Shown here in pieces: positions 19,984 to 64,000 of a stretch of 64,000 nt of DNA (position 1 is its first letter; the number at the start of each line of letters is the position of its first letter). The DNA lies in assembly GCA_964016885.1 (NCBI GenBank), contig OZ024740.1:129332001-129396000 (forward strand). Reading direction: 5' to 3'. Source of the DNA: Eledone cirrhosa. Its lineage: Eukaryota. Made by a program: the position numbers and the translations under genes. The notes below the pieces were generated by a model. That model had not been told where the DNA came from. It did not search any database and was given only the letters and a program-made list of their open reading frames with translations.

Positions 19984-20073
19984 ATGTATAGTATATATAT
20001 ATATATATATATATGATATATATATATATGTATATATAATATAAGATCAAAAGATGGTTAAAGGAGTTCCATA

Positions 20074-20815: not shown

Positions 20816-21019
20816 TATGGAACTCCTTTAACCATCTTTTGATCTTATATTATGCATACTCCAGTCCCACAAACTGTAGAGTGCTTCTTATCCGATATCT
20901 GCATTGCTTTATTGTACTACAATAAAACTCACCTCCTACATTAACTTGCTCCTTAACGGTTGAGCGCTTACTCTCATATTGGATACCTTTTGATGGTCCT
21001 TCACCTCTTCTTCTACAAC

Positions 21020-23424
21020 ATGGATTATTACAACATAACCAATTCAACTAAAGACATTCCTATACCTGGTAAATCTGAATTCACCAAACTTCTTATTGAA
21101 AAAACTGACTCCTTCGTAAGAAGACTTAGATGGACAGCCTATTTCTATGACCAGCGCCTAAAAGGGAACTTTCATACCAAAGAACACAACTTCCTCGATC
21201 ATCTTTTTAATTCTAGACGAAATCCTCCTTCCAACAAAAATCTAGCACAATTCGAGGAAGAATTAACTAAAATTATAAAAAATCTTAAATTCAAGAGATA
21301 CCCTTACAAAGGACAAGAGCACCTTGTAAATCTCAAGAACACAATCTCTAACCTAAATTCCTCAAAAAATGTTTTAGTCCACTCTGACAAAACCAATAAC
21401 CTATATGGTATTTCCAAGGATAATTATAACAACCTTATCCTAAAGGAACTTAGGAAAAAGTATCGTAAAACCAACCATGAAAATTTAGAATGCATAAACC
21501 TTGAAGCCTATGAGATTATGTCAAAACTTGGCATTGAAAAAAAAGACCGAACCATTCCTCCCAAGAACTCCGAGGATAAATCTCAAGGATCACAAAAACA
21601 ATTTTCGCACTGAACTACCTGTTAGATTAATCGCCCCCTCTAAATCTGATCTGGGGGTTGTTAGTAAAGCCATCTTGGATAGGATTATCCCACAGGTTAG
21701 TTCTAATTGCTCTTCTTTAAACCTAAATTTATGGTTTGGTACTTCTGAAGTGATTGGCTGGTTCAACAAATTGGATAATAAAAACAAACTAAAATTTATT
21801 CAATTCGATATTGCCAGCTACTATTCCTCCATTTCGCCTTCACTTCTCAATAATGCTCTATCTTTCGCACTTAAATATTCTGACATCACCACAGATGAAC
21901 TTCACATCATCCTCACCGCACGTAAAACCATCCTAGAGTTCAACAACGAATATTGGACCAGAGCCGATACCTCTAACAACTTCGACATCACAATGGGAGC
22001 ATCCGATTCATCCCAATTGACTGATTTAATTGGTATCTTCATTTTGAACTCTTTGAGTCGGAAAATTCCTCAACTTCGCGGTGGAATTTATCGTGACGAT
22101 GGACTCTTTACTATCCTAAATTGCAATATAGTTAAACTTAATATTATTAAGAACAATATACGTAATCTCTTTAACCAACATAACCTAAAAATTGAATTTG
22201 ATAATAGTATCAAACTAGCTAATTTCTTGGATGTATCTCTTAATCTTGACACTGGCCTATATTACCCTTACCATAAAAACAATGAGAATCTTAATTATGT
22301 TAACTTTAAATCTAACCATCCTACCAATATCAAGAATGCTATAGTTAATAATATTGGAAATAGAATATCTAACATATCTTCTAATAAAAACATCTTTGAT
22401 GCTAACGCCAATTACTATAATAACGCACTTTCTAAAGCCGGCTATCCAGATAAAATCAAATATAATAAAGAAACAAATTCTAGGAAAACTTACAGTAGAA
22501 TATTTAATCATAACCATTCCAATAATTTTAATAAAAGACCTAGATACAAAAACATAATCTGGTATAATGCTCCTTTCTCCATCTCTATTAATAACAATAT
22601 TCCTAAATTATTTTTTTAGTGCCATAAATAAATGCTTCCCTCCCTCACATATCTATAGTAAAATATTTAACAAACACACCATCAAATTTTCGTATTCTAC
22701 ATCCTCCAATATTTCCAACATCATCTCTAAACACAACAACAAAATATTAAATACTAAATCTCTTCCTTCCAATATTGAATTTCATAATAACAGTAATAGT
22801 ACTCCTGACGTCATTGTAAACCCTAGGCTAACTTCTGTAAACCCAAATGCAACATCAAACACAACTTCGCTAAATGTTCATAATCCAACTCTAAATCAAG
22901 AAACTATTATTCCTATTATTCCTATCGCAAACAACTTCTCCAATCCAATTCCTTCTATAGATAACACTAGATCACTCATTAATAATCTCTCTAATTGCAA
23001 CTGCCGCATTAAAAATAAATGTCCTCTCAACAACCATTGCCTCGATAAAAACTTAATTTATGAATGTAAAATTATAACTAGCACCAATTCCTTCACCTAT
23101 TTTGGCTCCACTTCCACCTCTTTTAAAGCTCGTCTCTATAATCATCATTCATTTTTCAAATACAAACTTAAAAGAACTAACACTGCTCTCTCAGAACTCA
23201 TATGGTCCTTAAAAGACAAAAACATTAAATATAACATCTTTTGGAAAAAGATTTCTTCTGCATCCTCATACTTGAACAGCTCTCTATCTAAAATCTGTAA
23301 TCTCTGCCTAAATGAAAAATTTACCATTATCTCTAACCTAGAATCCATAATAAATAGACGCTCAGATTTGTTTTCTATCTGCCTGCATAAATTCCATAGA
23401 ACTTTTCACAAAGTATACAGTTAA
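21020..23424 (+). CDS. PLE polyprotein: reverse transcriptase plus C-terminal GIY-YIG endonuclease (Naiad-like); two +1 frameshifts in homopolymers
   Basis: KDIP, LKDHK, FIQFDIASYY, ITMGASDS, IYRDDG, NFLDVSL, SNHP, WYNAP, CNC-x5-CPLNNHC, YFGSTSTSFKAR, CNLCLNEK, CLH. Frame breaks at A8 (21537-21544) and T7 (22611-22617). Confidence 0.92.
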
Positions 23425-23480
23425 TATTCAATTCTTTATCAATTTAGAATCTTTTCTCAAAGGCACATATACATACACCT

Positions 23481-23910
23481 CTTTAAAATATACCCATCTA
23501 CCTTACTTTAAAGGGCATTATACACTCTATAATACTCGTTTACTCATTACCCTCATTCTATCTTCTCGTAAAACAATAACATTTGTTTTTGACATTTTGA
23601 ATATTCATCCGCAATCATTATTATTTTTTCTCTCTATCATAAATCTTTTTAATCTCAATTTCATCCTTAATTTATTATTATATTTTTTTTTTAATATATA
23701 CTCATATATTCTTTAAAATATACCCATCTACCTTACTTTAAAGGGCATTATACACTCTATAATACTCGTTTACTCATTACCCCCATTCTATCTTCTCGTA
23801 AAACAATAACATTTGTTTTTGACATTTTGAGTATTCATCCGCAATCATTATTATTTTTTCTCTCTATCATAAATCTTTTTAATCTCAATTTCATCCTTAA
23901 TTTATTATTA
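23481..23910 (+). repeat. Tandem duplication (period 230 bp) in the PLE family 2 3' UTR
   Basis: CTTTAAAATATACCCATCTACC... starts at 23481 and at 23711; both copies run to TTTATTATTA. Confidence 0.9.
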
Positions 23911-24629
23911 TTGTTTTCTCCCCATCAACGAACTCATTATTAATACATATGAATTCAATATACAAACTTTAACTTCACATTATTTTTCTCAAATCCTTCT
24001 ACACATAAACTTTTTTTCTCTTTGCTAATTTTGAAATTCCCACAATACATACATTTCTTCTTTTGACGTTAGAATATTCACCCACAATTATTATTTTTTT
24101 CTCTCTATCTTCATACATAATTTCCCTTCGTTAATTTTCAAATTTCTTTAATTTATACATTATCTTCCAACGGTTCCCAACCTCTCTATATTAAAACATT
24201 ATATCTTTTTCTCAGTTATAAAAACTATCTCTTTCTCTCTATCAGCCATCTCTCCCTTTCCACCTTCACTCTCATCTCCTCCCCTTTTTTTAATCCTTTC
24301 CACCCCCCCCCCTCCCTAAATAAAATATTTTTTCCTCGCACATATCCTCCCTTCGTTAATTTTCAAAATTTTTAATTTATACAGTATCTTCCAACGGTTT
24401 TCAACCCCTCTATATAAAATATATCTCCTCTCAGTTATAAAAACTATCTCTTTCTCTCTATCACCCATCTCTCCCTCTCATCTCCTTCCCTTTTCATCCT
24501 TTTCTCCCCCCCCCTCTCTAAATAAAATATTTTTCCCAATATCACACATCAATCTAAAACCACTTTTCATATGTTGATTTAAAACTGCACTATCAACAAG
24601 TGTTTTTTAGCCTTCATATCATGTTCTCC

Positions 24630-24700
24630 TGTTTTATCTGATGAAAACGCAAATATTATTGTTTGATGATGTTTGTTTTTGAAATGCGCATAATAAAATA
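24630..24700 (+). ncRNA. Type I hammerhead ribozyme in the 3' pLTR of PLE family 2
   Basis: Same sequence as 20745-20815. Confidence 0.82.
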
Positions 24701-24863
24701 TATGGAACTCCTTTAACCATCTTTTGATCTTATATTATGCATACTCCAGTCCCACAAACTGTAGAGTGCTTCTTATCCGATATCTGCATTGCTTTATTGT
24801 ACTACAATAAAACTCACCTCCTACATTATATATATATATATATATATGATATATATATATATT

Positions 24864-24992
<129 letters not shown>

Positions 24993-25069
24993 GTGGTGTA
25001 TGTGTGTGTGTTTGTGTATGTGAGTGTATATATATATTTATTATATACATGCATACATAAATATATATA

Positions 25070-26420
25070 TCCTAAATAGGAGCACGATCTAACTATCCTG
25101 TTCCACCACAGCTAACCTGGCCAATTTATACAGTGAAATTAAATAACAAATTCCTCCGCGCGTATGGCAGTACCAATAGCCAACAGAAAGCCGGACATAA
25201 TTCAACCTCAGCAACAGCCGCATCCTCCACCATTGAGCAGACAACTACCCTCAAATACAAATCTCTCCTCCGCTTCACACGCATATCCGGATCAATAACA
25301 ACATATCCGGAATAACACTCCCAATACAAGAACCGGAGACGAAACCACACATTCTACACGGACACAATGCAACTACTGAAATCCCAACAAGTGTCCTTTG
25401 TGTAGTAAATGTTTGTACAAAAACATCATTGACCAAGGTGTCGTCAATTCTAAATTGGGCATATATAAACATGTGGGTTTTACTTCGAATATCTTTCAAG
25501 AAAAGATGGTATGTTCACACCAACACGTTTAAGAACCCTGGTTTAGCTAGATCTACGGCCCTGGTGAAAAACATTTGGGATCTGAAGCGCGCTAATATTG
25601 AGTACACACTACAATGGTCCTTGCTGAAAATCGTCCAACCAAACCGGAATGAAAGACGCCCCTGTGAATTATATCTGGCGGACGTAATTGAATAGTGACC
25701 GGAAAGGTCCTTCTCATTTCCGACAGGATAGGGTATCTAATTGCAAACACAAGGTTTTAAAACCCTCTCTCAATTCAAACTCGCCTAGAACACGATGATT
25801 CGATCCTTGATACCTAGATTTCACTACATTTTATTTAGTACATTTTCTGTGGCATTTGTACCTATCACACCCACGCAAATAAGTCAGTAATATTAAAAAT
25901 CTCATTTTCGTAATTTCTTTCCTCCCTACCAACTCTAACCTAGTCTTAATGTCTACACTCTCCTTTTTTCAGTCCCCTTTATACCTTCTTTACCCTCTCG
26001 ACCATATATGGCACATATCAAAACCTTCACCCATACTACAGGTCAAAGAATAATCGTTCCACATCACCTCACATAGATTGATAATGTAAAACTCTTAACC
26101 CCCACCCACTCTCCTCTTAACTCTCTCAACTACCACACTGTATTTCAATCTATTTTTATTGTCGGTTTGAGTTATTCATATTTTCTTAAACGAAAATCGC
26201 ATTCCTTCATTTTACCGCGTAGTTAATAGTCACTTCCACAATTACAGGTTTTCTGATGAAGTGTGATTAATAATTAAGTATTCAACATGATTGAACAATA
26301 TAGATTGGAGTCAGCATATGTAGACAATTATAATAGACAAGAAACATATGTTAAAGCATATGTTAAATTCAGCAGGTCGGGGACAGGGTTTTGAGTACTT
26401 GATGCATTTATAAGTTTAGC
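25070..26420 (+). mobile_element. Decayed 5'-truncated PLE (family 4): linker/GIY-YIG remnant and 3' UTR
   Basis: FKKRWYVHTNTF, IWDLK...LQWSLL and RRPCEL align to the endonuclease of the intact PLE; begins at a (TA)n tract; right boundary uncertain. Confidence 0.75.
26248..26357 (+). ncRNA. Probable degenerate type I hammerhead of PLE family 4
   Basis: GUUUU-CUGAUGA-[long, weak stem II]-GAA-ACAUAUGU-U-AAAGC; palindromic stem III; located where the pLTR is expected. Confidence 0.5.
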
Positions 26421-39046: not shown

Positions 39047-39085
<39 letters not shown>

Positions 39086-39167
39086 GTTATTCCGGGTTGA
39101 ATCGGAGGTAACCACAGTAAGTAAGGTACTCAATACATAGCAGAGTATAACAGTTTTAATATAGATG

Positions 39168-39218
39168 AGATTCTACAGGACTAGAACTGTTTCATTCATT
39201 AGAAATCATCAGGAATCT
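39168..39218 (-). ncRNA. Type I hammerhead ribozyme in the 3' pLTR of PLE family 3
   Basis: AGAUUC-CUGAUGA-UUUCUAAUGAAU-GAA-ACAG UUCUAGUC CUGU-A-GAAUCU. Confidence 0.85.
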
Positions 39219-39957
39219 GGGTATCAAAAAATAAATATGGTATTTATAGGTCTCTACAAGTGGTAGAAGAGGGTGGGGAGTGGGATGGGTGCAGGTCATT
39301 GGTTGATAGAAAAGGGAATTCATTAAAAGCTAATTCTACAAAGCTATAGTTAATTTTTATTTTTATTTATATTTATTTATGTTTTTAGAGTGACAAAGGC
39401 AGACAGAATTCTATAAACAGGTTCCGGATGGCATACCATTCCTTGTCAATAAGTTTCTCTTAAGCTAACAGATGTCTATAAAATCAGTGGGGGGTCAGTC
39501 ATGCTCCATAGAATTAAAGAAAAGGGAGATTCTTTAAAAGCTAAAGTCATTAAGGTTCTACTAAGTGACAAAGGTCTAGAGAATTCTGCAGACATATTCA
39601 AAATACTGTGTGCATATCTTACTATTATCTTCGAACTTCTCTTAAACTAATCAACAATATGCCAAAATCAACAGACACATTCACAAAAAAACAAAAAAAC
39701 AAAAAACCCAAAAAACAGAAAAACAAAAAAAAACACACATAAAAAACAAAAAAACACACATACTCACTCACACACTTACGCGCAACCATAAACACACACA
39801 CAAACACATATACTCACATAAAAACACACACACATATATAAAAAATATATAAATAAATATATATATATATATATATATTCATGTACACACACATACATAC
39901 ACACATACATACATACATACATACATATATAATACACATACACATATACATACGCAC

Positions 39958-40012
<55 letters not shown>

Positions 40013-40118
40013 TATACATATATATACATACATATATACATACATATACAAACATACATACATATATATACATACAAATATACATACACACACATACACA
40101 CACACACACATATATACG

Positions 40119-40214
<96 letters not shown>

Positions 40215-40389
40215 GATACACACACACATACACATACATACACACACACAAACATATATATACACAAATAAATACACTCACACGCATACAAACAAACACG
40301 AGTATACATATGTATAAATATACACACATACACACACACACACACATATATATACGTATATATATATATTTATATACATATATATATAC

Positions 40390-40436
<47 letters not shown>

Positions 40437-40649
40437 GATACACACACACATACACATACATACACACACACATATATATACACAAATGAATACACTCACA
40501 CGCATACACACAAACACGAGTATACATATGTATAAATATCTATACACACACACATACACACATATATATATATATATATACACACACATACACATATATA
40601 TATATATATATATACATATATACACATATATATACATACATATACATAC

Positions 40650-40695
<46 letters not shown>

Positions 40696-40713
40696 ATACA
40701 CACACATATACAA

Positions 40714-40753
<40 letters not shown>

Positions 40754-41073
40754 ATACATACACAAAACATACACATACATACACATACCTATACATAAAT
40801 ATACACATATATATACAGACATATAACGCACATATACACACACATATACATACACATATATACATATATATATACATATACATACATATATATATACACA
40901 CATATACATATATATATACACATACATACACATATATATATATGCATATATACACATACATACATATACATATACACATACATATATATACACATATACA
41001 CACACACGCGCGCATACACACATACACACACCGACACACAAAATATATATACACACACACTCTCTATCTCATG

Positions 41074-41115
<42 letters not shown>

Positions 41116-41358
41116 TACACATATATATACATATATGCGCATACATATACATATACAAATACATATACATACATACACATACACACATATATGTACATAT
41201 ACACTCACAAATACACACACATACACACATATATACATATACATACACACAAACACATACATATACACATATATATATATACACACACACACATATACAC
41301 ACATACGCACACACACACATATATATATATATATACACACACACATATACACATACAC

Positions 41359-41445
<87 letters not shown>

Positions 41446-41512
41446 CATACACACACATTCACATACACATACATATACATATATATATATATATATACAT
41501 ATACATACATAT

Positions 41513-41567
<55 letters not shown>

Positions 41568-41721
41568 CATATACACATATATATATATATATATACTCAC
41601 ATTCATATAATACATATACACACACACACATACACGCATATACATGTATACATACAAATACACACACATACACATATATATACATATATATACATATGTA
41701 CATATATATACATACATATAC

Positions 41722-41772
<51 letters not shown>

Positions 41773-41907
41773 TATATACATACACATACACACATATATA
41801 TATACATATATATATGTATACACACACACCTGCCCACACAATCATATACATACATATATACACATACATACACAAATACATATACATATGTGTGTATACA
41901 TATATAT

Positions 41908-41960
<53 letters not shown>

Positions 41961-42097
41961 TATACATATATATATACATATATATACACACACACACACA
42001 CGCACACACATACATACATACATACACACACACATACATATACATATATACAAATGCACACTTATATACATATATACATATATATATACACATATAT

Positions 42098-42139
<42 letters not shown>

Positions 42140-42176
42140 ATACATACACACATACATACATATACATGCATACACG

Positions 42177-42222
<46 letters not shown>

Positions 42223-42229
42223 CACATAC

Positions 42230-42262
<33 letters not shown>

Positions 42263-42438
42263 CACATACATATACACATATATATACACACACATACACA
42301 CACATACATGCATACACACATACACATACATATACATAAACAAACACACACACATACACACGTATACATACATACATACATACACATACGTACGCACATA
42401 CATATATATATATATACATACATATATATACACACATA

Positions 42439-42499
<61 letters not shown>

Positions 42500-42640
42500 A
42501 TACATATACACAAACACATTCATACATATACATACATAAATATACACACATAAAACACATATACACACAAACATATATATATACACACATATATATATAT
42601 ACATAAAAATACATATACACACACATACATATATACATAC

Positions 42641-42697
<57 letters not shown>

Positions 42698-42851
42698 CAT
42701 ATACACACACAAACACATATACATACATACATACATATACACAAACACATACATACATATACCTACATAAATATACACACATAAACCACATATACACACA
42801 AACATATATATATATACACATACACATACACACACATATACACACACACAT

Positions 42852-42934
<83 letters not shown>

Positions 42935-43174
42935 CATATATATACACACACACACATACACATATACATATATACAAACAAATATATACACAAACAAGTA
43001 AATAGGTACTCAATAAATATACGCATATACACAGGCACATAAAGACACCTCTACAGGCAGAAAATGTAGATACGAAAGAGGTACTCACATGACCATAGTG
43101 GCCGTATTTCAGGTTGAGGAGGGGTGGGGGTAGGGTGGGGAGGAGGTAAAGGGGCCAATAGGGGGAGGTCGTTT

Positions 43175-45316
43175 CTAGCCATCGGGCTTTAACACTGGCT
43201 TAAAGTGTTTGAATGTTGTAAAGTTCTTGTGCATGCAGTTCGGGCAGTGTTCAGAGAGTTTGTTCAGTAGCGGGCCCTTGGCGAATAAAATTTCGTAGCT
43301 CTCTGAAATACAAAGGTCGCAGCCCTTGTGTCCTCCGTTGTAAGAGCGCGCTTTCTGGAGTATTTTCCAATTAAGCGTGAAGGGGGTGGAGTTCCTTTTG
43401 AGGTCCCAAACGTAGGAGGCGAGTGTTGTTTGATTAGATTTATCCGGTCTACTGTAGGAGTGGGTATGGGCATACCAGCGGGTCTTAAAGGTGTTGGAGG
43501 TCATGCCGATGTAAGTTTTTTTGCAATCCTCGGTGCCCGAGATGACATCGCATTTGGATACGATGTCATTTGTGAGGCATTTGTTTTCTAGTGGGCATGC
43601 TTCCTTATTAAGGCAATTACATAGAGCCCCAGTCCGGGGATTGGTTTCGGAGGTGGTTGGCTTATTTAGTTTAGAGTTGTGGTTGGCTATATCCCTAGCT
43701 AGGTTAGGTGTGGTGGAGTAAGACAGTCTTATAGTGTTCTTATTAAAGATGGTGTAGTACCTATGTTGTATGGGGAAGTGTAATTTCAGTAAAGTGAAGA
43801 AAATCCTAGCTATCGGAGTAGATACCTCTCTATTGAAGGGAGGGTTGTACCAGCTAATCTGCCTATGTCTATTCCTCCTCTGCAATTTAGCGGTGGTTTC
43901 TAGGTAAGTTATCTTATCTTTAAATCCGCTACGGGCTAGGGCGTCATTGTAGTAGGAGGCAGACGCATTAAAAATATCTTTGTTGGCGGAGAGGCCAGAT
44001 ATTCTAATAGAGACGCTTTTTACTAGGTTATCAGTAATGTTTTGGGGGTGGTTTGAATTAACATTAATATATTTAAGGGACTCGTTAGGTTTGTGGTACG
44101 GGTAATAGAGGGAAGTATCTAGGTCGAGAGTGACATCTAAGAAGTTGGCCCTAGTCAAATTAGAATCTATAGTTATACTAAATCCTAGATTAGAGAAGAA
44201 AGAGCTTAAGTTTTTCCGAAACCCATCGGTGGTTCTGGGGCTAACCTTATGCAGGGCGAAGAGTCCGTCGTCTCGGTATAAACCTCCAGTTAGGCCGGTA
44301 AAGAGGTTCTTCAGGTTATGTAGGATGTACAGGCCCACAAGGTCGCTAATTTTAGCCGAGTCACTCGCCCCCATGCTAACGTCAAATGGGGTCTGAGATT
44401 TCTTGTTGATCCAGTAAGATCCATCGTGGTATAGAAAGGTCTTACGAGCGTGGAGGATAACAACTTGCTCGGCATCGGTAATGGTGGTAAAATTCCTGGC
44501 AAAGTTAATTGCGTCCTTCAGGAGGGGCTCCGAGATAGAGGCATAGTAGTTTTCTATGTCGAGTTGCAGGAAGCGAGTGTGGTGTTTATCAGGTAATTCT
44601 TGGAACCATGATATTGCCTCAGATGTTCTACTCCAGAGTGGAAGTGGTGAGGCTGCCCGCAATAATGGTAGAACTCTATCCAGGATCTTCTTACTGATAG
44701 AGCCGATGTCAGAACGAGTGGGGTTGATAAGTCTGACTGATGGTTTGTTGAGGAAATTTCCCTTATGGTCCTTCAGGGTAAAGTGCGGGGTCTTTACCCT
44801 TAAAGGTTCGGTTCGGTCATGTAATTTAAGGGACTTGGCGATTTCTTTTCCGGCCGCGTTTGTCTCAGTCAGCGCCCTCTCTATTACCTTTTTGTAGGTG
44901 GTCGTGATGGTATTTTTTGCCAGCTTATTGTAGGTCTGTGGGTCTACCTCATAAACGTTTTTGGTTTTATCGGAGGAGACATAAAGATTAGGGGATTTAT
45001 TTATATTCCGTAATTCGGCATTTAAGTAGGCCTGGAATGGTGTGGTGGCTCTACGGATTTTAATATCCTTGATCATCTTGAAGAGGTCTTCCTCAAATGG
45101 TTGGAGTAGTCTGTTGGTGGGTGGTGTCTTATTCGTTTTGAAGCCGAACTTCTCATCATTGGTAGATGCTACATCAGGGTTGTCGAGGAAGAAGGCCCTC
45201 CATCTAATTCGCTTGATGAACTCGTCGGTACGTCTGATGAGTGTTTTTAAGTATAGTTTCCTTGGAGGGATAGGGATGTTCTTCAAGGAAATATCAAGGT
45301 CGAGTTTGGTCAGCAT
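43175..45316 (-). CDS. Intact PLE polyprotein, 713 aa from the first ATG: reverse transcriptase plus GIY-YIG endonuclease (Naiad-like)
   Basis: [63 protein letters not shown]-x5-[30 protein letters not shown]; no stops or frameshifts. Confidence 0.95.
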
Positions 45317-45446
45317 GGTTTCTTGATGATGGTTATAAGGGGCACAGAGAGTGCTAAGATGTACGTTATTCCGGGTTGAATCGGAGGTAACCACAGTAAG
45401 TAAGGTACTCAATACATAACAGAGTATAACAGTTTTAATATAGATG

Positions 45447-45497
45447 AGATTCTACAGGACTAGAACTGTTTCATTCATTAGAAATCATCAGGAATCT
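45447..45497 (-). ncRNA. Type I hammerhead ribozyme in the 5' pLTR of PLE family 3
   Basis: Same sequence as 39168-39218. Confidence 0.85.
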
Positions 45498-46218
45498 GGG
45501 TATCAAAAAATAAATATGGTATTTATAGGTCTCTACAAGTGGTAGGAGAGGGTGGGGAGTGGGATGGGTGCAGGTCATTGGTTGATAGAAAAGGGAATTC
45601 ATTAAAAGCTAATTCTACAAAGCTATAGTTAATTTTTATTTTTATTTATATTTATTTATGTTTTTAGAGAGACAAAGGCAGACAGAATTCTATAAACAGG
45701 TTCCGGATGGCATACCATTCCTTGTCAATAAGTTTCTCTTAAGCTAACAGATGTCTATAAAATCAGTGGGGGGTCAGTCATGCTCCATAGAATTAAAGAA
45801 AAGGGAGATTCTTTAAAAGCTAAAGTCATTAAGGTTCTACTAAGTGACAAAGGTCTAGAGAATTCTGCAGACAGATTCAAAATATTGAGTGCATATCTTA
45901 CTATTATCTTCGAACTTCTCTTAAACTAAACAACAATATGCCAAAATCAACAGACACATTCACAAAAAAACAAAAAAAAAAAAAAACAAAAAACCAAAAA
46001 AACAGAAAAACAAAAAAAACACACATAAAAAACAAAAAAACACACATACTCACTCACACACTTACGCGCAACCATAAACACACACACAAACACATATACT
46101 CACATAAAAACACACACACATATATAAAAAATATATAAATATATATTCATGTACAACACACATACATACACACATACATACATACATATATAATACACAT
46201 ACACATATACATACGCAC

Positions 46219-46261
<43 letters not shown>

Positions 46262-46367
46262 TATACATATATATACATACATATATACATACATATACAA
46301 ACATACATACATATATATACATACAAATATACATACACACACATACACACACACACACATATATACG

Positions 46368-46445
<78 letters not shown>

Positions 46446-46615
46446 GATACACACACACATACACATACATACACACACACACACATATATATACACAAAT
46501 AAATACAGTCACACGCATACAAACAAGAGTATACATATGTATAAATATACACACATACACACACACACACACATATATACGTGTATATATATATATATAT
46601 AAAATATATATATAC

Positions 46616-46662
<47 letters not shown>

Positions 46663-46881
46663 GATACACACACACATACACGTACATACACACACACACA
46701 CATATATATACACAAATGAATACACTCACACGCATACAAACAAACACGAGTATACATATGTATAAATATCTATACACACACACATACACACATATATATA
46801 TATATATACACACACATACACATATATATATATATATATATACATATATATATACACATATATATACATACATATACATAC

Positions 46882-46917
<36 letters not shown>

Positions 46918-47141
46918 CTCTATACACACACATATATATGTATATATATATGTATATATATATGTATATATATATATGTGTATATATGTATGTATATATA
47001 TATATGTATGTGCGTACGTATGTGTATGTATGTATGTATGTATGTATACGTGTGTATGTGTGTGTGTTTGTTTATGTACATGTATGTGTATGTGTGTATG
47101 CATGTATGTGTGTGTATGTGTGTGTATATATATGTGTATAT

Positions 47142-47213
<72 letters not shown>

Positions 47214-47227
47214 GTGTATGTGTATGT

Positions 47228-47269
<42 letters not shown>

Positions 47270-47308
47270 GCATGTATATGTATGTATGTGTGTATGTATG
47301 TATGTGTG

Positions 47309-47340
<32 letters not shown>

Positions 47341-47412
47341 TATGTGTATATATGTGTATATATATATATGTATATATGTATATAAGTGTGCATTTGTATA
47401 TATGTATATGTA

Positions 47413-47443
<31 letters not shown>

Positions 47444-47490
47444 GTGCGTGTGTGTGTGTGTGTATATATATGTATATATATATGTATATA

Positions 47491-47571
<81 letters not shown>

Positions 47572-47709
47572 ATATATATGTATACACACATATATATATG
47601 TATTTGTGTATGTATGTGTATATATGTATGTATATGATTGTGTGGGCAGGTGTGTGTGTATATATATATATAATATATATATATATATATGTGTATGTGT
47701 ATGTATATA

Positions 47710-47776
<67 letters not shown>

Positions 47777-47928
47777 GTATATGTATGTATATATATGTAC
47801 ATATGTATATATATGTATATATATGTGTATGTGTGTGTATTTGTATGTATACATGTATATGCGTGTATGTGTGTGTGTGTATATGTCTTATATGAATGTG
47901 AGTATATATATATATATATGTGTATATG

Positions 47929-47979
<51 letters not shown>

Positions 47980-48047
47980 ATATGTATGTATATGTATATA
48001 TATATATATATATATGTATATGTATGTGTATGTGTATGTGTGTGTAT

Positions 48048-48091
<44 letters not shown>

Positions 48092-48130
48092 ATATATATA
48101 TATATATATGTGTATGTATATATGTGTGTG

Positions 48131-48184
<54 letters not shown>

Positions 48185-48621
48185 CGTATGTGTGTATATG
48201 TGTGTGTGTGTATATATATATATGTGTATATGTATGTGTTTGTGTGTATGTATATGTATATATGTGTGTATGTGTGTGTATTTGTGAGTGTATATGTACA
48301 TATATATATATATATATATATGTGTATGTGTATGTATGTATATGTATTTGTATATGTATATGTATGCGCATATATGTATATATATGTGTATATATGTAAA
48401 TATATATATATATATATATATATGTGCATGAGATAGAGAGTGTGTGTGTATATATATTTTGTGTGTCGGTGTGTGTATGTGTGTATGCGCGCGTGTGTGT
48501 GTATATGTGTATATATATGTATGTGTATATGTATATGTATGTATGTGTATATATGTATATATATATATGTGTATATTTATGTATAGGTCTGTGTATGTAT
48601 GTGTATGTTTTGTGTATGTAT

Positions 48622-48689
<68 letters not shown>

Positions 48690-48707
48690 TTGTATATGTG
48701 TGTGTAT

Positions 48708-48753
<46 letters not shown>

Positions 48754-48968
48754 GTATATGTATGTATATATATATGTGTATATATATATGTATATATATA
48801 TATATATATGTGTATGTGTGTGCATATATATATATATATGTGTGTATGTGTGTGTGTATAGATATTTATACATATGTATACTCGTGTTTGTTTGTATGCG
48901 TGTGAGTGTATTCATTTGTGTATATATATGTGTGTGTGTGTGTATGTATGTGTATGTGTGTGTGTATC

Positions 48969-49017
<49 letters not shown>

Positions 49018-49186
49018 GTATATATATATGTATATATATATATATATATACGTATATATGTGTGTGTGTGTGTGTATGTGTGTATATTTATACATATGTA
49101 TACTCGTGTTTGTTTGAATGCGTGTGAGTGTATTTATTTGTGTATATATATGTGTGTGTGTATGTATGTGTATGTGTGTGTGTATC

Positions 49187-49278
<92 letters not shown>

Positions 49279-49384
49279 CGTATGTATGTGTGTGTGTGTG
49301 TATGTGTGTGTATGTATATTTGTATGTATATATATGTATGTATGTTTGTATATGTATGTATATATGTATGTATATATATGTATA

Positions 49385-49443
<59 letters not shown>

Positions 49444-50140
49444 GTGCGTATGTATATGTGTATGTGTATTATATATGTATGTATGTATGTGTGTATGTAT
49501 GTGTGTGTACATGAATATATATTTATATATTTTTTATATATGTGTGTGTGTTTTTATGTGAGTATATGTGTTTGTGTGTGTGTTTATGGTTGCGCGTAAG
49601 TGTGTGAGTGAGTATGTGTGTTTTTTTGTTTTTTATGTGTGTTTTTTTTGTTTTTCTGTTTTTTTTTGTTTTTTGTTTTTTTGTTTTTTTGTGAATGTGT
49701 CTGTTGATTTTGGCATATTGTTGATTAGTTTAAGAGAAGTTCGAAGATAATAGTAAGATATGCACTCAGTATTTTGAATCTGTCTGCAGAATTCTCTAGA
49801 CCTTTGTCACTTAGTAGAACCTTAATGACTTTAGCTTTTAAAGAATCTCCCTTTTCTTTAATTCTATGGAGCATGACTGACCCCCCCACTGATTTTATAG
49901 ACATCTGTTAGCTTAAGAGAAACTTATTGACAAGGAATGGTATGCCATCCGGAACCTGTTTATAGAATTCTAAAAACATAAATAAATATAAATAAAAATA
50001 AAAATTAACTATAGCTTTGTAGAATTAGCTTTTAATGAATTCCCTTTTCTATCAACCAATGACCTGCACCCATTCCACTCCCCACCCTCTCCTACCACTT
50101 GTAGAGACCTATAAATACCATATTTATTTTTTGATACCCC

Positions 50141-50189
50141 GATTCCTGATGATTTCTAATGAATGAAACAGTTCTAGTCCTGTAGAATC
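50141..50189 (+). ncRNA. Type I hammerhead ribozyme in the inverted segment of PLE family 3
   Basis: GAUUC-CUGAUGA-UUUCUAAUGAAU-GAA-ACAGUUCUAGUCCUGU-A-GAAUC. Confidence 0.85.
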
Positions 50190-50202
50190 TCATCTATATT
50201 AA

Positions 50203-51757
<1,555 letters not shown>

Positions 51758-56462: not shown

Positions 56463-56703
56463 TATTAAAATAACAGATGAAAGTTTAAGCAAAGAATCGC
56501 TGCTTTCACACTTAACGGGATCTTCTGAAACTGAAAAACTAGTTTCAAATGATCCCGTTAAGTGTGAAAGCAGCGATTCTTTGCTTAAACTTTCATCTTT
56601 TATCTTAATAAATATTTGCTCTAGGGTTCTTATATATTTGATATATATTTATCCTTATCGAGCCCTCTTTGGATTTTAGTTTTCGCATTTATTATTATTA
56701 CTA
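56463..56703 (+). mobile_element. Family X miniature PLE-type element: palindromic pair of hammerhead-like motifs plus a 3' tail ending TTTATTATTATTACTA
   Basis: Arms 56463-56532 and 56541-56610. AGUUU-[CAAAUGA or CAGAAGA]-UCCCGUUAAGUGU-GAA-AGCA...UGCU-U-AAACU. Lies in (TA)n. Confidence 0.7.
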
Positions 56704-57842
56704 TATATATATATATGTATATATTTATATATATATATATTATATTCTGATATATAATACCTTGCGCACACATACTTTTATACCTACAAGTGGCCTAAAT
56801 ATCGCTATACCCTACATTTTTCTGTATAAACTCTCCCGAAGGACATTATGTTGGGCGTTAATCTATTAGAAAAGAAAACAAGTCCCCAATATCTGCATGT
56901 ATTATCCTCACATATATATATGCCTGTATTATATGTGTAAATAAATATAACTGTATTAGGATATGTATGTTAAAAATGTGTATGTGCGTGTATATAAATA
57001 TATATATACATGCTAATATGGATATATAAAGTGAGGGAGAGAGAAGGCGAGAAAGAGAGAAATAAAAAAAGGGAGAGATAGGGAGAGAGAGAGACAGTGC
57101 GCGCGAGAGAGAGGGAAATATATTTATAAAAATGTAGAGAGAGAGATGGAGGGAGATAGAGAGAGAGATGCAGAAATATATAAAAGAAAAGTGGGTATAA
57201 GAGAACACAAGCCTTCAAATCGATAGATAAAGACACTTAGAGGAAAAAATATAGATAAAATCGAAGGAGATAAGTAGGAGAAATATGTTGGAAGAAACAA
57301 GGATAGTAGAAGATGACAAAATGAATGGAAATATGAATGCACATAACGAAAGCTTAAATGACATACAAAAGCGACATGATGAAGAATAGATGAAAACAAA
57401 ACACAATAGGGCTATAGACCTAATTAATATGTATTATTGGTGAATAATGTGGATGTAAATGGTATATTGAATGCTATATCGGTTATATGAAGGAAACGAA
57501 ATTAACGCACCAAAACATTTCAAAGACATTTACGTTGAAATACTCATAAAAAAAAACAGCAGGTATTGTCTTGCAAATTCGAACACGTACAGTTGTACAC
57601 GAATGTATGTCAACATACATATAAATCTCACAATTTCATAGAAACATACACATAGTTAAACTTTTCAGTGCACAAATAAACGCGTGCACATACATACGAT
57701 CAGCATTCTCTCATGTTTCTTAAATTCGCATTCATATAACAGTCGATATACATATGTGTATGAATACATACATATTTGAATATATACAATACCCAGCATA
57801 ACAAAGAACCCCATGTATATATATAGACATACATATATATAT

Positions 57843-57944: not shown

Positions 57945-58429
57945 ATATATAGAGAAAGAGAGGTAGAGAGGCATAATTACAATTTAGCTTCGGCACAGCT
58001 GTTAATATATATGTATGTGAACTTTGTATCTCTTAATATAGGGTATGCATAATAAATATATATTTTGGAAGCCCAACTATGAAGACTGAAGGACCGACGG
58101 CCAGCGACGTGTAGCGGATTCCAGCATAAGCAGAGAATGACAGCTGTCTGTGCGTATTTGGAGGTACTGGCTCTCACCAGAACAGTCCATTCCTCTTCTC
58201 CGCTGGAACTTGAAATCTGACGATACTGTATAGTATTTTCGTCTCTGTATATGTGCTGATTAGCCTCATTTGCATATAAAGCTGTATGAGATGGCTCAAC
58301 TTAGATGTAGACTTAAAATTTATTTCCGGCACAGCTGTACGGTCACATACAGAAACACACATATATATATATGTGTGTGTATACGAAAATCACACCCCAA
58401 AACAAACACACGCACGTATATATATACAG

Positions 58430-58552
58430 AGAACTCGAAACTTGGAGTAGTAGAGTCGGTAATATGAAAAGATCCATCTAGATCCGAACAGCTAGGTTAG
58501 ATCTAGCCGTCCAAACGGACGGTGTTCAGCCGTTGGGGTCCTTACTCTGTTC
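58430..58552. mobile_element. Degraded PLE family 1 terminal fragment with inversion
   Basis: GTAGTAGAGTCGGTAATA (minus-sense terminus) followed by TAGCCGTCCAAACGG...CAGCCGTTGGGGTCCTTACT. Confidence 0.5.
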
Positions 58553-58769
58553 ATATATATATATATATATACTAGACCACCCTGGCCCCGTTAGCTCACA
58601 TTCACTTGAACTTTCTTTTTCAAATCATGTTCACTTAAACATAATTTTTAAATAATTAAAATATACACAAACATATATATAATGTGAAATGAAATTGGAA
58701 GCCTCATATATATATACACGTGTGTATGTTTATATATATAAATGTGTGTGTATACATATATTTATGTAT

Positions 58770-58812
<43 letters not shown>

Positions 58813-58839
58813 GATGTCTGTGACTATATACACTGGTCA

Positions 58840-58918
<79 letters not shown>

Positions 58919-58921
<3 letters not shown>

Positions 58922-59054
58922 AACCAGTAAGACCCCGACAGCTGAGCTCAAGCCGTTTCGACGGCTAATTCTGCCTATTACCCACTCTACTACCTCAAGT
59001 ATTGAGTACTTTGGTGCGTTACGGTCCACATGGTTCCTTACCACATTTTCTTCG

Positions 59055-59095
<41 letters not shown>

Positions 59096-59276
59096 AACCA
59101 GTAATTCTGGACTAAAAAAAAAAAAAAAAAAAAAAAAAAGTCCAGAATTAGCCGTCGAAACGGCTTGAGCTCAGCTGTCGGCGTCTTACTGGTTCCTATT
59201 ACCCACTCTACTACCTCAAGTATTGAGTACTTTGGTGCGTTATGGTCCACCTGGTTCCTTACCACATCTCATTCGT

Positions 59277-59353
<77 letters not shown>

Positions 59354-59545
59354 CAAAGGAATTGTGGTAAGCAACCATATGGACCATAACGCACCAGAGT
59401 ATCCAATACTGAGGGTAGTAGAGTGGGAAATAGGAAAAACTATGACCACGACGGCAGAGCTCAAGCCGTTTCGACGGCTATTTCAGTCCAGAAATAGCTG
59501 TCTTAACGCCTTGGGTTCTGTCGTCGGGGTCATACATTTTTCTAT
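58919..59545. mobile_element. Cluster of three miniature PLE family 1 termini (58919-59058 +, 59092-59280 +, 59351-59545 -), each with an inverted 5' piece and separated by (TA)n
   Basis: Each matches 9917-10030 and the GAAACGGCTTGAGCTC half of the 7501-7594 HHR; the 5' half of the HHR core is missing. Confidence 0.85.
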
Positions 59546-59564
59546 ATAAATATATATATATATT

Positions 59565-59630
59565 ATAATAATAAATTAGAAGACTAAAATCCAAAGAAGG
59601 CTCGATAAGGATAAATATATATCAAATAAT
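59565..59630 (-). mobile_element. Family X 3' terminus fragment fused to the 422-bp array
   Basis: ATAATAATAAATTAGAAGACTAAAATCCAAAGAAGGCTCGATAAGGATAAATATATATCAAATA matches 50245-50310. Confidence 0.8.
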
Positions 59631-60021
59631 AAGCATGAAACTAGTACAGCGTGCCTTTGTCAGTGTTGAACTAACGAGCAACGATGATTGCTATACACCA
59701 CGGCTTAATACGGGATGTTTGTTTACAAACACCCCGAGCATTATAATAAATGTTCGTTGAATCCATACGTACATATATATATGTGTGTGCATGTATGTAT
59801 ATATATATACATATTAATGTACGTATGTATACATATATGTATGTACGTGTACATACTTATATTTAAGTAACAGACGTACTAAGAGTGGGAAATGAAATTT
59901 CGTTTCATTTTTTCCGTTTATCGTTTTCGGTGCACCAGGCCGATTAACCCACTCCATATGCAAATTGGGCTACTCAGTCGTTAATATGCATAAGGTGAGT
60001 AGATACGTTCAACAATCTGGC

Positions 60022-60078
60022 AGGAAGGTATGCGTTGCTGACGATAGCTAATAAGCTTGAAACTAGTACATCGTTCCT
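60022..60078 (+). ncRNA. Type I hammerhead ribozyme of the 422-bp repeat
   Basis: AGGAA GGUAUG CGUUG-CUGACGA-UAGCU AAUA AGCUU-GAA-ACUAGU-A-CAUCG UUCCU; cleavage predicted after 60068. Confidence 0.82.
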
Positions 60079-60443
60079 TTGTCAGTGTTTTACAAACGAG
60101 CAACGACAGTTGCTAGACACTACGGCTTAATACGGGATGTTCGTTTACAAACATACTGAGCATTATAATAAATGTTCGGTGAATCCATACGTACATATAT
60201 ATATATATGTGCATGTATGTATATATATATACGTACTACTGTACGTCTGTATACATATATGTATGTACGTGTACATACTTAAATTTAAGGAACAGCCGTA
60301 CTAAGAGTGGCAAATGAAATTTCGTTTCATTTTTTCCGTTTATCGTTTTCGGTGCACCCGGCCGATTAAACCACTCGATATGCAAATTGGGCTACTCAAC
60401 CGTTAATATGCATAAGGTAAATATATACGTTCAACAATCTGGC

Positions 60444-60500
60444 AGGAAGGTATACGTTGCTGACGAGAGCTAATAAGCTTGAAACTAGTACATCGTTCCT
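60444..60500 (+). ncRNA. Type I hammerhead ribozyme of the 422-bp repeat
   Basis: AGGAA GGUAUA CGUUG-CUGACGA-GAGCU AAUA AGCUU-GAA-ACUAGU-A-CAUCG UUCCU; cleavage predicted after 60490. Confidence 0.85.
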
Positions 60501-60710
60501 TTGTCAGTGTTGAACAAACCTGCAACGATGGTTGCTAGACACTACGGCTTAATACGGGATGTTTGTTTACGAACACACCGAGCATTATAATAAATGTTCG
60601 GTGAATCCATACGTACATATATATATGTGTGCATGTATGTATATATATATATATACATACTACTGTCCGTCTGTATACATATATGTATGTACGTGTACAT
60701 ACTTATATAT

Positions 60711-60752
<42 letters not shown>

Positions 60753-61349
60753 ACAATACCACCAGTTATCTCTTCCAATTTCTTTTTCTCTAAGTCTCTC
60801 TTTTTCTCTCTCTCTCTTTCACAACCACTATATCTTTCTCACCCTCTCTCTGTTTATGAAGGTAGCCGGAAAAACCATATATCTCGATGAATCATGTTTT
60901 ATTCCATTTGTATTGCCATTACAGTGTCAACTACCTTTCAATGTATTTTCCCATTAAGCGCCCTTTTCGCTGAATTACGTTACAAACAAGTAAGCAATCA
61001 CAGATATTTAGTAATATATAGATAGATGTATATGGGTGTATGTGTGTTTGTGTGTCTGGCTGTGTGTGTGTAAGCATGAGTGTGTGTGTATATTTACATT
61101 TTAATGTTCGTGAAAATCAACGTAAATGTATATTGTTGAATAACTGTAAGTGTGAATATGCGTAGGAATAAGTATGTGCGTATGCTATCATAAATATATT
61201 TTGATACACATTTTGGAGTTTGTATGTTTATTCAGACATTCTCCAATTTATTTCCATGGGCGACAATATTTCCCGAATATATATATATTTTACAATATTT
61301 ACAATTTAATTATTTTTAATACTTAAAATTTAATTTAATTTTTTCAGTG

Positions 61350-61406
<57 letters not shown>

Positions 61407-61817
61407 AGTCTACAATATGAATTTCACAAATAAATAGCTGAGTAAATTACATGAAGGAAAAACAAAATCAAAATAAATTATATATATATATATAGCATGT
61501 AAATTTAAATTCATTTTCTAATCAGATTTGAAAGTTTTAGTAGATAAGTTCAACGTTTAAGAAGCGTGAAATCGATAAAATAATTACATATTTCAGGAAA
61601 TGAAAATAATTTATGAATAAAATATTTTCAGGAAATACACACGTACAAACACATTTATATAATCTTAGAAAATATTTCGTAAATGTGCGAGTGTTCATAT
61701 CTCTAGCACTTCGCTCTCTCTCCCTCAGTCTCTTGCACTCTCTTGCTTTCTCTCCCCCTCTCTCTCATTCTCTTTAACTCCCTTCTCACTCTAGTTCAGC
61801 ATATATGTAAAGGGAAA

Positions 61818-61938
<121 letters not shown>

Positions 61939-62049
61939 GCATCTAACAATTTAGTCGACCACTCTTTTATATATATGCATTTTTTATATATTCGTATATT
62001 AAACATGCTGACTATTATACTGTCTGCTGTCCATTAAATATATATTTAT

Positions 62050-63810: not shown

Positions 63811-63874
<64 letters not shown>

Positions 63875-63885
<11 letters not shown>

Positions 63886-63915
63886 TAAATTTGAAGACTA
63901 AAATCCAAAGAGGGT

Positions 63916-63920
<5 letters not shown>
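63875..63920 (-). mobile_element. ~45-bp family X 3' terminus inserted in (TA)n
   Basis: AGTGATAATAATAAATTTGAAGACTAAAATCCAAAGAGGGGTTCGAT matches 50243-50288. Confidence 0.75.

Positions 63921-64000
<80 letters not shown>

What the first reader, a model, noticed from the sequence alone, without database searches (positions are those of the whole stretch)
59627..60706. Retrozyme-like satellite: 422-nt non-coding monomer with one hammerhead ribozyme per unit
Seen: ~2.5 head-to-tail 422-bp units. Two have a complete type I HHR (CUGACGA/GAAA core, stem II with an AAUA loop, stem I with a GGUAUR bulge and a distal AGGAA/UUCCU helix, and a palindromic 6-nt stem III ACUAGU). The first copy lacks its 5' half. 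Predicted GUA cleavage sites at 59646, 60068 and 60490 are exactly 422 nt apart. The rest of the monomer contains several hairpins (GGATGTTTGT/ACAAACACC, GAGCATT/AATGTTC, AAATGAAA/TTTCATTT, self-complementary TA/CA tracts). Established: non-LTR retrozymes (newt satellite 2, schistosome SM-alpha, cave-cricket and mussel repeats) are tandem HHR-bearing monomers, some shown to give circular RNAs, and minimal stem III HHRs work as dimers. Inference: this is a probably undescribed retrozyme family whose tandem form is a reverse-transcribed copy of a circular RNA.
Basis: partly seen in the sequence, partly recalled or inferred. Interest (0 to 1): 0.92.

Follow-up and report, generated by a model that had tools for sequence, protein, structure and literature searches.

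The report
Hammerhead retrozyme spread by Penelope machinery
This is one ageing copy of a 422-base, non-coding repeat that carries a predicted self-cutting RNA motif and has been pasted thousands of times into TA repeats, with the insertion marks of Penelope-like retrotransposons; it is a new member of a known class, useful mainly for testing how such elements move.

Summary
There are 2.6 units of 422 bp and two complete type I hammerheads, with GUA sites at 59646, 60068 and 60490. The family is dispersed: 6,249 exact ribozyme cores genome-wide (control 0), plus a 59%-identical sister family with 9,337. Stems I and II covary between the families.

The insertion footprint adds most. Arrays end at two fixed monomer positions (about 213-219, and 275), both running into (TA)n. 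Of 59 arms, 40 have an inverted partner; 31 of 43 inverted loci pair a long end with a short end. 5' ends are scattered, and none of 59 lies at the cleavage site. This is the two-start 'tail' signature of Penelope-like elements (PLEs). The window copy has a 13-bp target-site duplication and lies near Hydra-type PLEs with the same two-end pattern.

Verdict: a new member of the known non-LTR retrozymes, moved by PLE machinery (about 0.9). A circular template is plausible (about 0.55) but unproven: there are no RNA data, and PLE RT can use uncleaved RNA. No partner PLE was found. The scan earlier noted a PLE-type repeat without a ribozyme in another genome.

The parts
59562..59628 (.). Fragment of another TA-inserted repeat; the target into which the array inserted
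   Evidence: Similar copies at about 50243-50340 and 56629-56723 continue as TATAAGAACC; contigs leave the window sequence at 59628 with that continuation (table 7)
59616..59628 (+). Left target-site duplication TATATATCAAATA; its last TA overlaps monomer positions 403-404
   Evidence: The same 13-mer occurs at 60704 and in the empty-site homologue at 50298
59627..59646 (+). 5'-truncated remnant (monomer 403-422): 3' half of a hammerhead without CUGA; the point where reverse transcription stopped
59647..60068 (+). Unit 1, cleavage site to cleavage site, 422 nt, 17 listed differences from the family consensus
   Evidence: circular fold -134.8 kcal/mol, z -9.6 against 25 shuffles
59765..59858 (+). 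Long TA/CA-rich hairpin, also present in the sister family
59858..59921 (+). 'Tail' between the two fixed 3'-end sites (short site about 212-219, long site 275); holds the AAATGAAATTTCGTTTCATTT hairpin and the start of TTTATCGT
   Evidence: homologous ends in the sister family
59958..59965 (+). ATGCAAAT octamer (again at 60380-60387); candidate promoter element, untested
   Evidence: 8 of 8 positions kept in the 59%-identical sister family
60008..60092 (+). Hammerhead 1: extended stem I, CUGACGA 60038-60044, stem II 60045-60058 (U.U at base), GAAA 60059-60062, palindrome ACUAGU 60062-60067, predicted cut after 60068
60069..60490 (+). Unit 2, 422 nt, 35 substitutions from unit 1
   Evidence: circular fold z -3.7
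60430..60514 (+). Hammerhead 2: CUGACGA 60460-60466, stem II with G.U at base, predicted cut after 60490
60491..60708 (+). Partial unit 3, ending at the short fixed end; last TATAT shared with the target
60704..60716 (+). Right target-site duplication TATATATCAAATA
60717..60748 (.). (TA)n tract at the 3' junction

Best explanation
A non-autonomous, non-coding passenger of (TA)n-targeting Penelope-like elements (PLEs), that is, a non-LTR retrozyme. Step 1 (inferred): arrays are transcribed, by read-through or from an internal octamer-containing promoter. Step 2 (inferred from structure and covariation): tandem hammerheads cut the transcript into 422-nt monomers, probably as dimers through the ACUAGU palindrome. 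The long stem I holds the ends together and a host ligase closes the circle. Step 3 (shown in DNA; enzyme inferred): a PLE protein nicks (TA)n DNA and starts reverse transcription inside the RNA at one of two fixed sites, about 213-219 or 275 nt after the cleavage site. It runs across the cleavage junction and stops at scattered places. Often a second arm is made from the other site on the opposite strand, giving an inverted pair with a tail of about 60 nt on one side. Step 4 (shown): some arrays later grow by local duplication. The window copy is one such insertion: priming at the short site with 5 nt of microhomology, about 2.6 units copied, a 13-bp target duplication, then drift of about 4% per unit. 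Odds: about 0.9 for a retrozyme-type element moved by PLE machinery; about 0.55 that the template is a circle; Hydra-type PLEs are the favoured but unproven helper.
For: Dispersal: 6,249 exact cores, control 0; about 11,000 by scaling, since 41 of 72 cores in loci chosen by their 3' end match exactly; best copies 93-95% identical on many contigs. Fixed ends: one 29-mer runs into TATA in 2,567 places and continues into the unit in 2,659; 895 exact short ends; contigs of three runs leave the window at 59921 and 60281 into (TA)n. Inversions: 40 of 59 arms chosen by 3' end alone have an inverted partner; 31 of 43 inverted loci pair one long with one short end, against 1 long-long, 1 short-short and 10 other. 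This matches the tail, inverted 5'-truncated copy and microsatellite bias described for PLEs (10.1101/2021.04.23.441226, passages) and the two internal RT start sites shown in vitro (PMC11167929). Two PLEs in this window show the same two ends. The junction is no barrier: 39 of 59 arms cross it, and none of the 59 starts closer than 8 nt to it. One template lineage per insertion: both arms share a rare variant in 11 of 36 inverted loci against 33 of 1,236 cross-locus pairs; 7 of 7 segments in both arms of sister locus L260 carry a variant absent from L206 and L207 of the same subfamily. Ribozyme under selection: 92.8% of cells paired, 27 cells changed on both sides, against 36-52% paired for slid controls. 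Circular fold z -9.6 (unit 1) and -13.7 (consensus); longest open frame 53 codons; GC 37.7%.
Against: No cleavage or RNA data. In the one PLE studied in vitro, hammerhead mutants inserted normally and uncleaved RNA was the main substrate, so read-through of the junction does not prove a circle. The 422 family lacks the G-C pair at the base of stem II (10 of 16 aligned rows unpaired there), and the best fold of the window copy mispairs the core. Only 1 of 9 Xenopus dimers cleaved in the 2026 preprint. Within the family the core is barely more conserved than the rest (14 of 595 against 539 of 15,223 differences). The 11 of 11 core identity with the sister family is built into the pattern that found it. 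The covariation set has 16 related rows, and most both-side changes come from one family split. No PLE sharing the ribozyme or the end motif was found. Target duplications are rare: 5 of 53 direct copies have one with non-TA letters, most of them weak, and the host repeat does not resume after the window's right duplication.
Confidence: 0.6

Rival explanations
1. The same PLE passenger, but the template is an uncleaved linear read-through transcript of an existing array. The hammerhead cuts rarely, or only with protein help, and circles are by-products or absent.
For: Uncleaved RNA was the dominant substrate for the anole PLE, whose hammerhead needed protein (PMC11167929). The ribozyme here has a 1-bp stem III and a U.U at the base of stem II. 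Most arms are short (median 409 nt; 8 of 59 cross two junctions), so a dimer or trimer transcript would suffice. Long source arrays exist (48 full units).
Against: The stems covary and the monomer folds as a closed unit in both families. Circles were shown for coral, mussel and axolotl retrozymes, including one with the same 1-bp palindromic stem III (PMC7229834). Near-identical multi-unit arrays span both arms of young insertions.
Confidence: 0.3
2. The arrays are orphaned pseudo-LTRs: truncated insertions of an autonomous PLE whose terminal repeat is this unit.
For: In Xenopus 24 of 57 retrozyme families resemble known TEs, nearly all PLEs, at their termini (10.64898/2026.07.22.740005). The insertion footprint is that of a PLE. 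Six copies have PLE sequence joined at the 5' end with little or no TA.
Against: Units follow each other head to tail with no ORF. Only 34 genomic matches keep the end motif with another continuation, and the 30 fetched were 29 rearranged retrozyme copies and 1 unrelated locus. The six PLE joins involve different PLE families and different monomer positions. PLE hammerheads in this genome have other sequences.
Confidence: 0.06
3. An ordinary satellite or DNA-level mobile repeat; the hammerhead-like motif is incidental.
For: Some arrays show 2- or 4-unit higher-order repeats that point to local duplication. Rfam's threshold is not reached.
Against: Fixed 3' ends, scattered 5' ends and inverted arms are marks of reverse transcription. 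The copies are dispersed over many contigs. Stems I and II covary.
Confidence: 0.04

Closest known systems
Non-LTR retrozymes of animals (Cervera & de la Pena 2020, PMC7229834, parts 1-4 of 6 read, supplement unreadable; Li, Clavereau & Pollet 2026, 10.64898/2026.07.22.740005, parts 1-3 of 5 read)
   Same: Tandem non-coding units of 150-450 bp, one type I hammerhead each, GC below 50%, thousands of dispersed copies, a self-paired predicted circle, and co-occurrence with PLEs.
   Different: Expression, cleavage and circles are untested here. In the parts read, neither paper maps fixed internal 3' ends, tails or inverted arms for retrozymes. The 2020 review (PMC7761336, passages) says animal retrozymes show no motif pointing to their helper and no promoter; here an end motif and an octamer are conserved between two families. 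No pLTR homologue was found, unlike the Xenopus families.
Axolotl HHR_Amex1/Amex2 repeats and newt satellite 2 (PMC7229834; newt promoter seen only as a passage in PMC2220036)
   Same: A 1-bp helix III with a palindromic tetraloop (as Amex1) and a U.U at the base of helix II (as Amex2); both predicted to need dimers.
   Different: Both weak features are combined in one ribozyme; the unit is 422 nt rather than 330-350; no sequence comparison was made. That the newt snRNA-type promoter includes an octamer is recalled, and the original paper was not held.
Penelope-like elements: Hydra clade (Craig et al. 2021, passages) and Poseidon of the anole (Frangieh et al. 2024, PMC11167929, parts 1-2 of 4 read)
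   Same: 5' truncation, partial tandems, inverted truncated arm, a tail between two internal RT start sites, (TA)n or AT-rich targets, and a hammerhead upstream of the start sites.
   Different: No ORF. The tail is about 60 nt (about 69 in the sister family) rather than 30-40. The short end here shares a few TA letters with the target, whereas the anole element started without homology. The helper is not identified.
Non-autonomous Chlamys elements such as MRC1 (Craig et al. 2021, passage)
   Same: [quoted passage not shown]
   Different: Those mostly lack hammerheads and resemble an autonomous family at the 3' end; this has a canonical hammerhead and no matched autonomous family.

Membership tests
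Non-LTR retrozyme | Head-to-tail units of about 150-450 bp | tested here: met
   422 bp, 2.6 copies
Non-LTR retrozyme | Complete type I hammerhead in at least two consecutive units | tested here: met
Non-LTR retrozyme | Non-coding, GC below 50% | tested here: met
   Longest open frame 53 codons, GC 37.7%
Non-LTR retrozyme | Many dispersed copies | tested here: met
   6,249 exact cores; many contigs
Non-LTR retrozyme | Stable self-paired fold predicted for the circular monomer | tested here: met
   z -9.6 and -3.7 for the window units, -13.7 for the consensus, 25 shuffles each; the TA/CA hairpin contributes
Non-LTR retrozyme | No LTR, PBS or PPT | tested here: inconclusive
   No LTR-flanked body in the loci mapped; PBS and PPT were not searched for
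Non-LTR retrozyme | Self-cleavage in vitro | not testable with these tools
   Needs a bench assay
Non-LTR retrozyme | Expressed as linear and circular monomers | not testable with these tools
   Only contig runs of unknown kind were available
Canonical type I hammerhead | Core CUGANGA / GAAA / NUH; helix I 6 bp, helix II 4 bp, helix III 1-2 bp with a palindromic loop (PMC4209133, passage) | tested here: met
   window helix I has one U.U mismatch
Canonical type I hammerhead | Compensatory changes in helices I and II | tested here: met
   6 of 14 pairs with both-side changes, 27 cells; rows are related
Canonical type I hammerhead | G10.1-C11.1 pair | tested here: not met
   U.U in the family, G.U in window HHR2, G-C only in the sister family
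Canonical type I hammerhead | Rfam hammerhead model at gathering score | tested here: not met
   HH9 20.1 of 52 bits
Non-autonomous Penelope-like element | Two fixed 3' ends with a tail between them | tested here: met
Non-autonomous Penelope-like element | 5' truncation and an inverted truncated arm | tested here: met
   40 of 59 arms inverted, scattered 5' ends
Non-autonomous Penelope-like element | Microsatellite target | tested here: met
   3' ends run into (TA)n
Non-autonomous Penelope-like element | Homology to the pLTR of an autonomous PLE | tested here: inconclusive
   None found in the PLE loci sampled; the sample is small against 10,595 GIY-YIG candidates
tRNA-derived SINE | tRNA-like head | tested here: inconclusive
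   ARAGORN 0 genes in 58000-62000, Rfam none; degenerate heads could be missed

The most novel reading that the evidence does not exclude
Two sister retrozyme families carry their own octamer-type promoter and make circular RNAs that a Hydra-clade PLE reverse-transcribes by rolling circle. It starts at two structure-defined sites on the far side of the circle from the ribozyme, marked by a conserved hairpin plus TTTATCG. This would be the first helper-recognition signal and promoter for an invertebrate retrozyme, and would place the PLE 'tail' mechanism on a circular template.
Probability: 0.25. Interest if true: 0.75.

Novelty: new member of a known kind. Interest (0 to 1): 0.5.

Why it matters
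That PLEs mobilise animal retrozymes has been proposed from co-occurrence and pLTR homology (PMC7229834; 10.64898/2026.07.22.740005). Here the insertions themselves carry the PLE two-start signature in thousands of copies, with the start sites mapped to the base and conserved in a sister family. With the in vitro PLE system of PMC11167929, this makes an open question directly testable: whether the retrotransposition template is the circle or the uncleaved multimer, and what the hammerhead is for. The two families also account for at least 15,000 ribozyme cores in one genome. The class itself is published, so the surprise is moderate.

Tried and rejected
Rfam: nothing at gathering score; the miRNA hits at low thresholds come from the TA/CA hairpin and were rejected. 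Expression: no RNA holder listed; three contig runs of unknown kind, at most one sample, cannot show RNA, circles or strand. Partner PLE: sought in 30 GIY-YIG loci, 8 longer PLE regions and other held loci, by the end motif with another continuation (34 matches, 30 fetched) and by ACUAGU hammerheads with other stem II lengths (151 matches, 30 fetched); none found. PLE-retrozyme chimeras: 5 of 92 direct copies have PLE sequence joined at the 5' end with little or no TA, plus one long array (4 Hydra-like, 1 Neptune-like, 1 unassigned). This is a hint only, since shared targets explain it too. The flank classification was dropped because my PLE library held other repeats. Dimeric circles as templates: ABAB arrays at L151, L152 and L157 do not share their A/B variants, and the inverted arm shared them convincingly in none, so local duplication was preferred. 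A transcription start near position 387-403: suggested by biased samples, not seen in the 59 arms chosen by 3' end (5 of 59 in 379-422; two pairs of the 59 are duplicates). Pair probabilities were mis-indexed and were redone. The monomer folded for L180 was two units (932 nt), so its z-score is not used. PMC308520 was not held. The supplement of PMC7229834 was unreadable and may list this lineage; supplements of the 2026 preprint were not seen. Host genes in the window were not searched beyond 9 long ORFs. The 5'-end sample could not be enlarged beyond 60 loci.

Full report
Observation. The window holds 2.6 head-to-tail units of 422 bp at 59627-60705, 91% alike. The predicted cleavage sites (A of GUA) are at 59646, 60068 and 60490. 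Two hammerheads are complete, and the first 'copy' is a 20-nt remnant. Below, monomer position 1 is the base after the cleavage site. Rfam gives nothing at gathering score and only a weak, full-length HH9 alignment (20.1 of 52 bits).

The ribozyme. Its shape is the canonical animal type I form described in PMC4209133 (passages): helix I of 6 bp, helix II of 4 bp, and a one-pair helix III with a palindromic loop. The base of helix II is U.U in the family. The axolotl has each of these two weak features in a separate family, and both cleave better as dimers (PMC7229834). Across 16 distinct sequences from this family, its older subfamilies and a sister family, 92.8% of cells pair and 27 cells change on both sides; slid controls pair at 36-52%. 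The rows are related, so this is support rather than a probability. In a dimer, the active fold costs about 8 kcal/mol over the best fold for the window copy, 3 (single) to 6 (double) for the consensus, and about 2 for the double form in the sister family. The window copy is therefore decayed, with 17 and 14 listed differences from consensus in its two units.

The family. The 3.0-Gb genome has 6,249 exact matches to the core pattern and none to the control. Scaling by the 41 of 72 exact cores in loci chosen by their 3' end gives about 11,000. A sister family with a period of about 466-469 bp has 9,337 exact cores and is 59-60% identical. It keeps the TA/CA hairpin, the AATTTCGTTTC hairpin arm, TTTATCGT and an ATGCAAAT octamer. 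The monomer has no frame over 53 codons, is 37.7% GC, and folds as a circle well below shuffles (z -9.6 and -3.7 for the window units). Within the family the core is barely better kept than the rest (14 of 595 against 539 of 15,223), as expected if copies drift after insertion.

How copies insert. Arrays stop at two places, position about 213-219 and position 275, and run into (TA)n. One 29-mer before position 275 runs into TATA 2,567 times and continues into the unit 2,659 times; 895 exact short ends were counted. The sister family ends at the homologous places. In 59 arms chosen only by their 3' end (60 examined, 1 cut by the locus edge), 5' ends are scattered, 39 cross at least one cleavage junction, none starts closer than 8 nt to it, and 40 have an inverted partner. 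Of 43 inverted loci, 31 pair a long end with a short end, 1 is long-long, 1 short-short and 10 are other. Both arms share a rare variant in 11 of 36 loci, against 33 of 1,236 cross-locus pairs (13 loci were left out as duplicates or double insertions). These are the marks of Penelope-like elements: 5' truncation, an inverted truncated copy, a tail on one end and microsatellite bias (10.1101/2021.04.23.441226, passages). In vitro, a PLE RT starts at two internal sites and the tail is the sequence between them (PMC11167929).

The window copy. It sits in a fragment of another TA-inserted repeat. The 13-mer TATATATCAAATA flanks it at 59616 and 60704 and occurs once in an empty homologue at 50298; contigs leave the window at 59628 with the empty-site continuation. 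I read this as priming at the short site with 5 nt of shared TATAT, copying of about 2.6 units, and a stop in stem II. The host repeat does not resume after the right duplication, and such duplications are rare in the family (5 of 53 with non-TA letters), so this reading is probable rather than certain.

The helper. The window holds three PLE ORFs or remnants. The 758-codon frame at 43175-45451 (-) has the DKT, CxCX5C and GIY-YIG motifs that define the (TA)n-inserting Hydra clade. Pfam did not call it; the ESM Atlas places it with animal RT/GIY-YIG proteins. It and the element at about 20480-24830 carry their own hammerheads and end at two places in (TA)n, about 85-90 nt apart. No PLE shares the retrozyme's ribozyme or end motif in what I sampled. 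Six PLE-retrozyme 5' joins lean to Hydra (4 of 6) but prove nothing.

Circle or not. For the circle: the closed fold, stem I joining the monomer's ends, read-through of the junction, uniform young arrays across both arms, and circles shown in coral, mussel and axolotl. Against: the anole PLE used uncleaved RNA and did not need its hammerhead; only 1 of 9 Xenopus dimers cleaved; most arms are under two units; and ABAB and four-unit periodicities show DNA-level growth of long arrays. I put the circle at about 0.55. The octamer may belong to an internal promoter, as an snRNA-type promoter is reported for newt satellite 2 (passage in PMC2220036). The link to an octamer is recalled, and the 2020 review says retrozymes seem to lack promoters.

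Novelty and score. It meets the sequence-level definition of a non-LTR retrozyme, and the functional criteria are untested. Eight searches found no description of this family; the giant squid genome paper only counts 235 hammerhead loci (passage). An unread supplement and repeat databases could still list it. Verdict: new member of a known kind, with an unusually clear PLE footprint. Interest 0.5.

Noticed in passing
window 39080-50210: Hydra-type PLE with an open 758-codon frame at 43175-45451 (-), hammerheads at about 39212 (-), 45491 (-) and 50146 (+), an inverted arm, and two 3' ends in (TA)n about 22 and 107 nt after the cut site; a further pLTR piece with a hammerhead at about 50718 (-).
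   Followed up: partly
window 19716-25078: Second Hydra-type PLE, ORF in three frames at 20957-23424 (+), hammerheads at about 20136 (-), 20753 and 24638, short and long ends about 88 nt apart; a 230-bp tandem duplication at 23480-23911. Its short end contains CTTATATT, as does the retrozyme's.
   Followed up: partly
window 8771-10068: 5'-truncated PLE remnant (RT end and GIY-YIG, - strand) beside a repeat arm at 9916-10068 that ends in (TA)n.
   Followed up: partly
window 58920-59540: Three copies of a 130-190-bp repeat matching 9916-10068, in direct and inverted order between TA tracts, with a 26-A run at 59114-59139 inside a small inverted repeat; perhaps isolated PLE tails.
   Followed up: no
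L180, L201-L230, L260 (G000, for example C1:5738327-5752443 and C1:30831845-30838691): Sister retrozyme family of about 466-469 bp with 9,337 exact cores, long arrays in two inverted arms, and near-identical young copies.
   Followed up: yes
L153-L155 (G000:C1:51772400-51793800): Array with 48 full units mapped and four-unit periodicity, whose 5' end joins the 3' UTR of a Hydra-type PLE at a short TATATATA.
   Followed up: partly
L093, L147, L126: Some arms consist almost only of the tail (about positions 204-275, or 268-300), joined inverted to a full turn of the monomer.
   Followed up: no
L058, L110, L161: Mosaic arrays that switch between subfamily haplotypes within one arm: template switching or gene conversion.
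   Followed up: no
L266-L289 (several): Single, divergent hammerhead-like motifs with the same ACUAGU palindrome and longer stem II regions, with no similarity to either monomer and no PLE ORF hit nearby; 151 pattern matches in all against 1 for the control, many of them indel variants of the two families.
   Followed up: partly
window 50243-50340, 56629-56723, 59562-59628, 63845-63936: An unidentified repeat end that abuts (TA)n and often flanks retrozyme copies elsewhere (L028, L048, L093, L097, L200); probably the 3' end of another PLE family.
   Followed up: partly
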